Notes under the pieces: model-generated
What the model was told of the DNA's origin: nothing
The model's database searches: none
The model's input: the letters and a program-made list of their open reading frames with translations, nothing else
Program-made: the position numbers and the translations under genes
From: a virus
Lineage: Monodnaviria; Loebvirae; Hofneiviricota; Faserviricetes; Tubulavirales; Inoviridae
Reading direction: 5' to 3' (one strand)
DNA length: 13,368 bases
Virus record (IMG/VR): IMGVR_UViG_2630968543_000001
Shown here: positions 381 to 1,175 of the stretch, piece after piece
Numbering within the stretch: position 1 is the first letter of the stretch
How the letters are laid out: every line of letters begins with the position of its first letter

Positions 381-1175
381 TTATTTTGGTGAGATTATTA
401 CTTTTACCGAAATTGAATTTGTACAACGCTCAAGGTCATTCTCCACACCAATTGGATTGGCAATTCTACCTTCAGGGTCATATACAAAACACACTAAAGT
501 TTCGCAATCAGGATGCGTTTGATAATGAGCTATATCAACAATTAATTGCTCACCAACTTCTTTTTGCTTGAGATTTTTTCTCGTTTTCTTTAACTCGATA
601 ATGATTTTTTCATTCTTTAACAAGAAGTCAACTCGTGTTGAAGATCCTGCATAGCTTGGCGTATATTCTTCTGGTCTGACATCCTCGAAATGAATCTTCA
701 AAAGAGCATGAAATAAATCCTGAACGTCATATTCGTCATTTATTTCAATGGTTTGTCTATTATCGTGTCGTTGCTGTAGCTGTCTTGCAACCTTATGAAA
801 TTGATGGCAAATTAGTTCAACAAGAGCTACGGGATCATTTTTTGTCTCTATGAAATTCCCGTCAATTCCATATTCTTCAATCTCAGCAATCATAGACGTA
901 AGAAGAGAATGTGCTTCATCTAAACCACTACAAAATGCGTTATCGAAAACATAATCTGGTGTATCACCAACAAATGCCATTAAAGAGTATCGAATTGAGC
1001 CAAATTCTTTTTTGTGATCTGACTCTTCACCAAATATTTTTGATATGGCGGTCTTAGTGTTTCTTTGCCATAAGTTAAAACTTGGGTTATTTCCTGTACT
1101 CCTTCGTTCATTTTGTATTGCTGGGATTTGCTCCCGTTGTCTTTTTAATATCTCGATAGCTTTTTCTGGCTTCAT
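381..1175 (-). CDS. Hypothetical 264-aa protein with a PD-(D/E)xK-like nuclease motif in the C-terminal half
   Basis: ORF-track 264 aa with GAGGA 7 nt upstream of the ATG. Residues E164 (HFEDV), D183 (RVDFLL) and E194-L-K196 (IIIELKK) have the order and spacing typical of the restriction-endonuclease-like fold. No confident family assignment from memory. Confidence 0.6.
   Translation of the reverse strand: MKPEKAIEILKRQREQIPAIQNERRSTGNNPSFNLWQRNTKTAISKIFGEESDHKKEFGSIRYSLMAFVGDTPDYVFDNAFCSGLDEAHSLLTSMIAEIEEYGIDGNFIETKNDPVALVELICHQFHKVARQLQQRHDNRQTIEINDEYDVQDLFHALLKIHFEDVRPEEYTPSYAGSSTRVDFLLKNEKIIIELKKTRKNLKQKEVGEQLIVDIAHYQTHPDCETLVCFVYDPEGRIANPIGVENDLERCTNSISVKVIISPK

What the first reader, a model, noticed from the sequence alone, without database searches (positions are those of the whole stretch)
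588..692. PD-(D/E)xK-like catalytic motif in the 264-aa protein
Residues E164 (HFEDV), D183 (RVDFLL) and E194-x-K196 (IIIELKK) follow the order and spacing of the restriction-endonuclease-like fold: an acidic residue, then D at the end of a hydrophobic strand, then E-x-K in the next strand, followed by a helix (EQLIVDIAHY). The N-terminal 150 aa are unassigned. A weak R-x5-H pattern at aa 131-137 (RQLQQRH) is noted but is not convincing as a HEPN motif.
Basis: inference. Interest (0 to 1): 0.6.

Follow-up and report, generated by a model that had tools for sequence, protein, structure and literature searches.

The report
Known-family nuclease carried by filamentous prophage
The 264-aa protein really does carry a restriction-endonuclease-like (PD-(D/E)xK) DNA-cutting domain, of an already catalogued family (Pfam PF18742), and it sits as swappable cargo, probably an anti-phage weapon, at the edge of a filamentous prophage in E. 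coli.

Summary

Residues 1-107 form a predicted four-helix bundle that matches the N-terminal part of the PADLOC candidate PDC-S35, whose C-terminal part is a TIR domain. The gene, with a DUF6953 gene 10 bp downstream, lies just inside attL of a CUS-1/Ypf-like inovirus integrated at dif. Sister prophages carry a TIR protein or an unrelated protein in that slot. The most likely role is a gated DNase acting in defence or abortive infection; this is inferred, not shown. RefSeq already names the protein a PD-(D/E)XK nuclease, so this is a new member of a known kind.

The parts
381..1175 (-). Gene for the 264-aa two-domain protein (identical to RefSeq WP_001527023.1, named 'PD-(D/E)XK nuclease domain-containing protein'); the range includes the stop codon
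   Evidence: ORF list; translation; RefSeq annotation in L001; phrog_29450, unknown function
384..824 (-). C-terminal PF18742 (REase_DpnII-MboI) PD-(D/E)xK nuclease domain, aa 118-264
588..629 (-). Catalytic core D183 (627-629) ... E194 (594-596)-x-K196 (588-590), on strands beta2 and beta3
   Evidence: Conserved in 267, 266 and 265 of 268 homologues; aligned with D298/E309/K311 of EcbAgaN, where alanine mutants are inactive (PMC10620215)
681..734 (-). Invariant acidic residues upstream of the core: E148 (732-734) in helix alpha1 and D165 (681-683) in the alpha1-beta1 loop.
   Evidence: Column counts; E148 aligns with E263 and D165 with D280 of EcbAgaN, while E164 aligns with N279
855..1175 (-). 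N-terminal domain, aa 1-107: predicted four-helix bundle, no Pfam family, matches the first 103 positions of PADLOC candidate model PDC-S35
104..370 (-). DUF6953 gene (88 aa), 10 bp downstream of the nuclease gene on the same strand; a facultative partner
   Evidence: PF22266 E 1.8e-28. Paired with a PF18742 gene in E. coli, Klebsiella and Salmonella inoviruses and in P. brasiliense, but found alone elsewhere
34..73 (-). Strong hairpin followed by UUUUC: probable intrinsic terminator of the leftward (lysogeny-side) transcription unit
   Evidence: MFE -30 kcal/mol, z -6.2. Function is inferred; the consensus terminator scan did not list it
4..18 (+). XerC arm and start of the central region of E. 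coli dif (GGTGCGCATAATGTA): left prophage junction (attL)
   Evidence: Single exact match. hipBA lies just left of this point in L001 and L025. The dif sequence and the dif integration of CUS-1/Ypf come from prior knowledge and PMC4266046
1242..1664 (-). 140-aa predicted membrane protein: prophage backbone gene that bounds the cargo slot, not part of the cargo
   Evidence: 96-97% identical in prophages that carry different cargo; phrog_4174
1764..2210 (-). HTH (rstR-like) repressor gene heading the same leftward gene string
   Evidence: PF01381 E 1.6e-9; the repressor role is inferred by analogy with YPO2273/RstR

Best explanation
The 264-aa protein is a single-chain, two-module nuclease. The C-terminal module (aa 118-264) is a PF18742 PD-(D/E)xK domain. 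In it, D183, E194 and K196, probably with E148 and/or D165, would bind divalent metal and hydrolyse DNA phosphodiester bonds, most likely without strict sequence specificity, as in its characterised relative EcbAgaN. The N-terminal module (aa 1-107) is a fast-evolving four-helix bundle that most likely gates or oligomerises the nuclease. The same kind of N-domain is joined to a TIR effector in the PADLOC candidate PDC-S35, and other PF18742 proteins carry dozens of unrelated N-domains of similar size.

The gene is low-GC cargo placed just inside attL of a CUS-1/Ypf-like filamentous prophage at dif. It runs in the same direction as the repressor gene, so it is probably expressed in lysogens. 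The same slot holds a TIR protein or an unrelated protein in sister prophages. The most likely role is protection of the lysogen, and so of the prophage, against other phages or mobile DNA, by triggered DNA degradation (defence or abortive infection).

Shown here: family membership, fold, residue conservation, genomic placement and cargo polymorphism. Inferred: DNase activity, gating by the N-domain, and the defence role. DUF6953 is probably an optional accessory, not an obligate antitoxin.
For: Domain:
- Pfam PF18742, E 6.9e-59, full profile.
- 3617 homologues and 3286 representatives at 50% identity.
- Catalytic columns are nearly invariant.
- EcbAgaN is matched at profile E 1.8e-4 with its catalytic residues aligned. 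EcbAgaN is a Mn2+-dependent DNase acting on ssDNA and dsDNA, and its D298A and E309A-K311A mutants are dead.

PF18742 as an immune effector:
- PADLOC Aga_Helical-REase, E 1.3e-34.
- A Detocs effector variant.
- An AbiTii-N fusion.
- An E. coli PF18742 protein, WP_021532008.1, was scored as a predicted novel defence gene by DefensePredictor.

Modularity:
- Of the 150 best representatives, 57 share this N-domain and 83 have unrelated N-termini falling into 51 groups.
- In viral-contig relatives the N-domain is 29-48% identical where the C-domain is 61-73%.
- In P. brasiliense the N-domain has been swapped while the C-domain stays 79% identical.
- The PDC-S35 profile matches our N-domain over positions 1-103 and a TIR domain over positions 93-237.

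Cargo:
- attL/dif lies at window 4-18.
- Each copy of tandem prophages includes the gene.
- 95 E. coli genomes have the phage backbone but only 23 have this cargo.
- The slot holds a CAP12/Pycsar-type TIR protein in DEC5E and an unrelated 369-aa protein in NU14.
- The gene is 35% GC, against 42% for the rest of the window from 1764 on and 47.5% for the adjacent 140-aa gene.

Contexts of homologues: solitary genes in prophages and beside IS and toxin-antitoxin genes, and in 38 viral contigs.
Against: - No experiment on this protein or on its N-domain subfamily was found. The accession numbers and DUF6953 are absent from the searched literature and from the DefensePredictor tables.
- PADLOC has no model for the whole protein.
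- The two validated DefensePredictor systems annotated with a DpnII-MboI-like domain (DS-19, DS-21) are not detectably related.
- The link to PDC-S35 rests on profile matches; no actual N-domain-plus-TIR protein was retrieved.
- No trigger is known.
- Interdomain geometry is uncertain (pTM 0.54 for the full-length model).
- CUS-1/Ypf prophages are discussed in the literature as modest fitness or virulence factors, not as defence carriers.
Confidence: 0.55

Rival explanations
1. Addiction (toxin-antitoxin) module. The nuclease is a toxin and DUF6953 its antitoxin. Together they stabilise the otherwise easily lost filamentous prophage by killing cells that lose it.
For: The two genes are 10-17 bp apart on one strand in the E. 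coli, Klebsiella and Salmonella inoviruses and in P. brasiliense. Intact DUF6953 persists beside 50-53-aa nuclease remnants in Morganella and in one P. brasiliense strain, as orphan antitoxins do. Ypf-type phages are reported to be unstable.
Against: - An 85% identical nuclease stands alone in P. polaris at the same chromosomal locus.
- All other homologue contexts examined lack DUF6953.
- 3617 nuclease clusters compare with 91 DUF6953 clusters.
- DUF6953 occurs alone in a tailed prophage, in a defence-type island, and after a GDPD gene.
- EcbAgaN alone does not kill cells.
Confidence: 0.12
2. Solitary sequence-specific type II restriction enzyme of the DpnII/MboI kind. It would cut unmethylated GATC and rely on the host Dam methylase instead of its own methyltransferase.
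For: The family name. Three of the top structural neighbours (BstYI, BamHI, BglII) are enzymes known to recognise GATC-core sites (their specificities are prior knowledge). No methyltransferase lies in the window, and E. coli is Dam+ (prior knowledge). GATC is at 0.55 of expectation in the phage unit.
Against: - No match to the canonical DpnII Pfam family at E <= 1.
- The same solitary gene, with no neighbouring methyltransferase, occurs in Magnetospirillum and Riemerella and the family reaches Paenibacillus.
- A 150-aa core kept at about 60% identity behind dozens of unrelated N-domains does not look like a recognition module.
- The characterised relative EcbAgaN cuts non-specifically and also cuts methylated E. 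coli DNA.
- Most 4-bp palindromes are depleted in this phage, and the backbone is shared with prophages carrying other cargo, so the GATC depletion says little.
Confidence: 0.08
3. A phage housekeeping nuclease, needed for replication, integration, excision or processing of the filamentous phage genome.
For: It is encoded within the repeated phage unit and travels with it between E. coli, Klebsiella and Salmonella.
Against: About three quarters of E. coli genomes with the same backbone lack it: 95 have the backbone and 23 the cargo. The published functional modules of Ypf do not include it, and the attL-side ORFs are described as variable and of unknown function. Its GC content is atypical.
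Confidence: 0.03

Closest known systems
EcbAgaN, the nuclease of the E. coli long-B Argonaute system BPAN (Song et al. 2023, PMC10620215; PDB 23wq)
   Same: It has a C-terminal PD-(D/E)xK domain of the same clade (PADLOC Aga_Helical-REase 1.3e-34; profile E 1.8e-4). E148, D165, D183, E194 and K196 align with E263, D280, D298, E309 and K311. It also has a helical N-terminal region ahead of the nuclease. It is a biochemically proven Mn2+-dependent, non-specific DNase used for abortive infection.
   Different: bAgaN is 390 aa and works with a neighbouring long-B pAgo, which activates it. No Argonaute gene lies here or near the homologues examined. The N-terminal regions are not similar: PADLOC hits cover only profile positions 216-375.
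PADLOC candidate system PDC-S35 (model PDLC05005)
   Same: The first ~103 profile positions match residues 1-107 of this protein (E 3.6e-11), and also match N-domain relatives P0121 and P0137. It is a single-gene system of the same total length (264).
   Different: The C-terminal part of the PDC-S35 profile is a TIR domain; it matches the TIR of the DEC5E prophage cargo protein. Here that position is filled by a PD-(D/E)xK nuclease. PDC-S35 is itself only a candidate system.
Pfam PF18742 REase_DpnII-MboI as a recurrent conflict-system effector (Detocs variants, CifB/CinB-type nucleases)
   Different: Detocs effectors carry a receiver domain and need DtcA and DtcB. Cif proteins are large two-gene eukaryote-directed factors. 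Neither architecture nor partner genes are present here.
Shedu (DUF4263) single-protein defence nucleases
   Same: The design logic is the same: one polypeptide with a conserved PD-(D/E)xK nuclease behind highly variable N-terminal domains thought to control activation (prior knowledge).
   Different: No sequence match to DUF4263 in Pfam or PADLOC. It is a different clade of the superfamily.
CUS-1 (E. coli O18:K1:H7) and YpfPhi (Yersinia pestis) filamentous prophages
   Same: Same phage backbone, integration at dif, and a variable pair of ORFs of unknown function next to attL (PMC4266046). NU14 carries the CUS-1-type cargo in the same slot.
   Different: The cargo here (nuclease plus DUF6953) is unrelated to the NU14 cargo (369-aa protein). 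The review reports no homologues in databases for these attL-side ORFs (orf1/orf1a in CUS-1, YPO2271/2272 in Ypf).

Membership tests
Pfam PF18742 REase_DpnII-MboI (PD-(D/E)xK clan) | Score above the curated gathering threshold over the whole profile | tested here: met
   198.1 bits against a cutoff of 27, E 6.9e-59; residues 118-264 cover profile positions 2-150 of 150
Pfam PF18742 REase_DpnII-MboI (PD-(D/E)xK clan) | Restriction-endonuclease-like alpha-beta-beta-beta-alpha-beta core | tested here: met
Pfam PF18742 REase_DpnII-MboI (PD-(D/E)xK clan) | Conserved D ... (D/E)xK catalytic residues on beta2 and beta3 | tested here: met
   D183 267/268, E194 266/268, K196 265/268; also E148 and D165 268/268
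Pfam PF18742 REase_DpnII-MboI (PD-(D/E)xK clan) | Metal-dependent nuclease activity | not testable with these tools
   Shown only for the distant relative EcbAgaN
Canonical type II restriction enzyme DpnII/MboI (GATC) | Membership of the DpnII endonuclease sequence family | tested here: not met
   No Pfam family other than PF18742, plus a chance CENP-S hit, at E <= 1
Canonical type II restriction enzyme DpnII/MboI (GATC) | Cognate methyltransferase in the same locus | tested here: not met
   None among the window ORFs or beside homologues in Pectobacterium, Citrobacter, Magnetospirillum and Riemerella
Canonical type II restriction enzyme DpnII/MboI (GATC) | Sequence-specific cleavage at GATC | not testable with these tools
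   GATC depletion in the phage (0.55 observed/expected) is uninformative
BPAN (long-B pAgo + bAgaN) | Adjacent long-B Argonaute gene | tested here: not met
   No such ORF in the window or in homologue contexts
BPAN (long-B pAgo + bAgaN) | bAgaN-type nuclease domain with a D-ExK motif | tested here: met
   PADLOC PDLC02411 1.3e-34 over aa 97-263; profile against PDB 23wq E 1.8e-4 with catalytic residues aligned
BPAN (long-B pAgo + bAgaN) | bAgaN-type N-terminal helical region | tested here: not met
   All Aga_Helical-REase hits cover only profile positions ~216-375
PADLOC PDC-S35 candidate | N-terminal domain of the model | tested here: met
   PDLC05005 E 3.6e-11; aa 1-107 match profile positions 1-103 of 264
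PADLOC PDC-S35 candidate | C-terminal TIR effector | tested here: not met
   Profile positions 93-237 match a TIR domain (DEC5E protein); here the C-terminus is PF18742
HEPN ribonuclease | Conserved R-x4-6-H motif in an all-helical domain | tested here: not met
   H137 is H/Y/R and R131 is R/K among homologues, and the segment is the first helix of the PF18742 match
Type II toxin-antitoxin pair (nuclease + DUF6953) | Obligate, conserved co-occurrence of the two genes | tested here: not met
   Nuclease alone; DUF6953 alone; paired only
Detocs | DtcA sensor kinase, DtcB, and a receiver domain on the effector | tested here: not met
   No such domains in the protein or its neighbours

The most novel reading that the evidence does not exclude
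The protein may represent an uncharacterised class of one-protein immune sensors. In this reading, a small, rapidly diversifying four-helix N-domain recognises an invader cue and can be wired to either a TIR (PDC-S35) or a PF18742 DNase. Filamentous prophages of the CUS-1/Ypf group would then use their attL-side slot as an exchangeable defence cassette (nuclease, TIR or other). That could be the real basis of the fitness effects long attributed to these prophages, and the cassette moves between E. coli, Salmonella and Klebsiella plasmids inside virions.
Probability: 0.4. Interest if true: 0.55.

Novelty: new member of a known kind. Interest (0 to 1): 0.33.

Why it matters
The nuclease call itself adds little. 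Pfam, PHROGs and current RefSeq annotation already flag the domain.

What is worth recording is the context. A conserved DNase module sits behind a fast-changing N-terminal domain that is also found joined to TIR. It occupies a polymorphic cargo slot of a clinically widespread filamentous prophage, of the CUS-1/Ypf lineage found in extra-intestinal pathogenic E. coli and Y. pestis.

If the defence reading is right, it gives a concrete, testable function for the 'ORFs of unknown function' at the attL end of these phages. It would also add inoviruses at dif to the list of vehicles that shuttle immune genes. The experiments needed are simple: plaque assays with D183A or E194A/K196A mutants.

Tried and rejected
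- HEPN reading of RQLQQRH: rejected, because H137 is not conserved and the segment lies inside the PF18742 match.
- E164 as the first catalytic acid: disfavoured, because the position is variable. E148 and D165 are invariant and shared with EcbAgaN.
- The 140-aa membrane protein as part of the system: rejected. It is backbone, 96-97% identical whatever the cargo.
- DUF6953 as an obligate partner: rejected.
- Searching with the N-domain alone failed. The search for homologous proteins returned only two E. coli fragments. tblastn against phages found nothing, and against plasmids only the same phage.
- The genome scan for DUF6953 gave only 4 loci.
- Megablast of the cargo region against the GenBank phage collection found no match.
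- Foldseek against the PDB was not significant, and PDB 23wq did not appear among the hits.
- The profile of DUF6953 against PDB sequences found nothing.
- GATC avoidance as a test of DpnII-like specificity was uninformative.
- DefensePredictor DS-19 and DS-21 (annotated DpnII-MboI-like) are not related to this family by hhalign.
- One literature search was wasted on the substring 'rease'.

Full report
**Observation.** The minus-strand ORF at window 381..1175 encodes the 264-aa protein. E164, D183, E194 and K196 are encoded at 684-686, 627-629, 594-596 and 588-590, and window 588-692 translates to HFEDVRPEEYTPSYAGSSTRVDFLLKNEKIIIELK. So the coordinates and residues are correct. A D-x(8-20)-[DE]-x-K pattern is not evidence by itself: it appears in 85% of composition-preserving shuffles of this protein.

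**What makes the motif real.**
- Residues 118-264 match the curated Pfam family PF18742 (REase_DpnII-MboI, PD-(D/E)xK clan) over the whole profile: 198 bits against a cutoff of 27, E 6.9e-59. NCBIfam has no model for the protein. PHROGs lists it as phrog_29450, unknown function. Recent RefSeq annotation names the identical protein WP_001527023.1 'PD-(D/E)XK nuclease domain-containing protein'.
- The family is large: 3617 clusters in one search and 3286 representatives at 50% identity in another.
- Across 268 homologues, D183 is kept in 267, E194 in 266 and K196 in 265. E148 and D165 are kept in all 268. Position 164 is E in only 39 and is otherwise mostly D, with some N, S or T. H137 is H, Y or R.
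The full-length model has pLDDT 83; the domain-only model has pLDDT 86 and pTM 0.84.
- The only solved structure found by sequence is EcbAgaN (PDB 23wq): single-sequence E 0.26, profile E 1.8e-4. In that alignment D183, E194 and K196 fall on D298, E309 and K311, and E148 and D165 fall on E263 and D280, while E164 falls on N279.
- Song et al. 2023 showed that EcbAgaN is a Mn2+-dependent DNase on ssDNA and dsDNA, and that its D298A and E309A-K311A mutants are inactive.

One correction: E164 is probably not the first catalytic acid. The R-x5-H pattern is not a HEPN motif, because it is not conserved and lies in the first helix of the nuclease-domain match.

Within PF18742 proteins, the nuclease module is conserved while the N-terminal part is not.
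- Of the 150 best representatives, 57 share this N-domain, 10 do so marginally, and 83 carry unrelated N-termini of about 50-260 aa (most 100-150). The 76 of those longer than 70 aa fall into 51 groups. One of ten sampled has an AbiTii N-terminal domain and the rest have no Pfam match.
- In viral-contig relatives that keep this N-domain, it is 29-48% identical where the nuclease is 61-73%.
- In Pectobacterium brasiliense the nuclease module is 79% identical but the N-domain has been replaced.

**Genomic setting.**
- Window 4-18 is the XerC arm of E. coli dif.
- In complete genomes the region lies next to hipBA.
- The window carries a filamentous-phage gene set: HTH repressor, II/X replication protein, ssDNA-binding protein, coat proteins, Zot-like pI and a secretin. 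This is the CUS-1/YpfPhi type described in PMC4266046, whose attL-side ORFs are called variable and of unknown function.
- The nuclease gene and the DUF6953 gene lie between attL and a 140-aa membrane-protein gene, on the same strand as the repressor. They end at a strong hairpin (-30 kcal/mol, z -6.2) followed by UUUUC.
- The nuclease gene is 35% GC, against 42% for the rest of the window from 1764 on and 47.5% for the adjacent 140-aa gene.
- Tandem prophage copies in another E. coli strain and on a Klebsiella IncFIB/IncHI1B plasmid each include both genes, so they belong to the phage genome. A Salmonella relative has them too.
- Ninety-five E. coli genomes have the repressor/replication module, but only 23 have this cargo.
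- In strain NU14 the slot holds an unrelated 369-aa protein. In O55:H7 DEC5E it holds a 368-aa CAP12/Pycsar-type TIR protein. The 140-aa gene stays 96-97% identical.
- Elsewhere the nuclease family is a solitary gene in a Citrobacter prophage, or sits beside IS elements and toxin-antitoxin genes. It occurs in 38 IMG/VR contigs.

**DUF6953.** This 88-aa protein (PF22266, E 1.8e-28) follows a PF18742 gene at a distance of 10-17 bp in the enterobacterial inoviruses and in P. brasiliense. It follows short nuclease remnants in Morganella and in one P. brasiliense strain. However, an 85% identical nuclease lacks it in P. polaris at the same locus. DUF6953 also occurs alone in a Tatumella tailed prophage, in an E. 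coli island with Abi_2, Mrr and PemK genes, in two MAGs, and after a GDPD gene in metagenomes. It is therefore a facultative neighbour, not an obligate antitoxin. Its function remains unknown, and no structural relative was found by sequence.

**Mechanism.** The best-supported reading is a gated, metal-dependent DNase. Its N-terminal bundle controls activation or assembly. A temperate filamentous phage carries it as lysogen-expressed cargo that protects the host-prophage pair against other mobile DNA.
- Shown: family, fold, conserved active site, modular evolution, cargo status and slot polymorphism.
- Inferred: enzymatic activity, gating, and the defence role.
- Support by analogy: PF18742 is the effector in BPAN and in Detocs variants. 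An E. coli PF18742 protein was scored as a predicted novel defence gene by DefensePredictor.
- Against: no experiment on this subfamily was found. The validated DS-19 and DS-21 systems are unrelated.

**Rivals.**
- A toxin-antitoxin pair with DUF6953. The pairing is local, and both genes often occur alone.
- A Dam-dependent solitary GATC restriction enzyme. There is no DpnII-family match, the gene is also solitary in distantly related bacteria such as Magnetospirillum and Riemerella, and the relative EcbAgaN is non-specific. GATC depletion of 0.55 in the phage is uninformative.
- A phage housekeeping nuclease. The gene is absent from most copies of the same phage.

**Novelty.** The domain and its catalytic motif are already catalogued, so the finding as written is a correct recognition of a known family. 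The particular architecture (this N-domain plus PF18742), its relation to PDC-S35, and its place in a polymorphic cargo slot of a dif-integrating inovirus are, as far as the searched literature shows, undescribed. They are extensions of known themes rather than a new kind of system.

Noticed in passing
window 1721-5587 and 5586-9452: A perfect (100% identical) 3867-nt head-to-tail repeat with period 3865. A partial prophage copy (repressor, replication gene, ssDNA-binding protein, small ORFs, coat, and the first 3/4 of the pIII/puvA-like gene, truncated to 436 aa) is fused by 2-3 nt of microhomology to a full copy. Only the first copy has the nuclease cargo. This could be a genuine RS1-like tandem array, as filamentous phages use for replication from the chromosome, or an assembly artefact.
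   Followed up: partly
L064 (K. pneumoniae plasmid NZ_CP132684.1, 62288-86611): The same inovirus, with 100% identical nuclease, DUF6953 and 140-aa proteins, is present as two full tandem copies on a 248-kb IncFIB/IncHI1B Klebsiella plasmid. This indicates recent intergeneric spread of the phage with its cargo.
   Followed up: partly
L025 2850-3956 (E. coli O55:H7 DEC5E) and L024 2762-3871 (E. coli NU14): The attL-side slot of the same prophage backbone holds a 368-aa protein with a CAP12/Pycsar-type TIR domain (also hit by PDC-S35 and PycTIR models) in DEC5E. In NU14 it holds an unrelated 369-aa protein with no domain hits (phrog_17621). The three cargo proteins share no sequence similarity.
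   Followed up: yes
L017 5196-5984 (Pectobacterium brasiliense) versus L002 8001-8795 (P. polaris): At the same chromosomal locus (SnoaL, DUF3811, LysR, MCP genes), P. polaris has an 85% identical full-length nuclease without DUF6953. P. brasiliense has a nuclease with an unrelated N-domain, a 79% identical C-domain, and DUF6953. A third strain (L019) has only a 53-aa nuclease remnant plus DUF6953, next to phage-replication-type genes. This points to recombination at the domain boundary.
   Followed up: partly
window 104-370; L067, L069, L020-L023: DUF6953 is a small, mobile, stand-alone gene in other settings: between terminase genes of a Tatumella tailed prophage, in an E. coli island with Abi_2, Mrr_cat and PemK genes, and 16 bp after a GDPD gene in four metagenome contigs. 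It has a conserved Trp/Arg-rich C-terminal half (IWERGxKxWRKR..YDxPGRQQ). Its function is unknown.
   Followed up: partly
window 34-73, minus strand: A 17-bp GC-rich hairpin (-30 kcal/mol, z -6.2) followed by UUUUC, lying between DUF6953 and the dif arm. The consensus terminator scan did not list it.
   Followed up: yes
window 12589-12837 and 12983-13231: Two 82-aa ORFs downstream of the secretin gene correspond in position to the attR-side hypothetical proteins annotated in L001, L024 and L064 (249-bp and 198-bp CDSs in RefSeq). They were not analysed.
   Followed up: no
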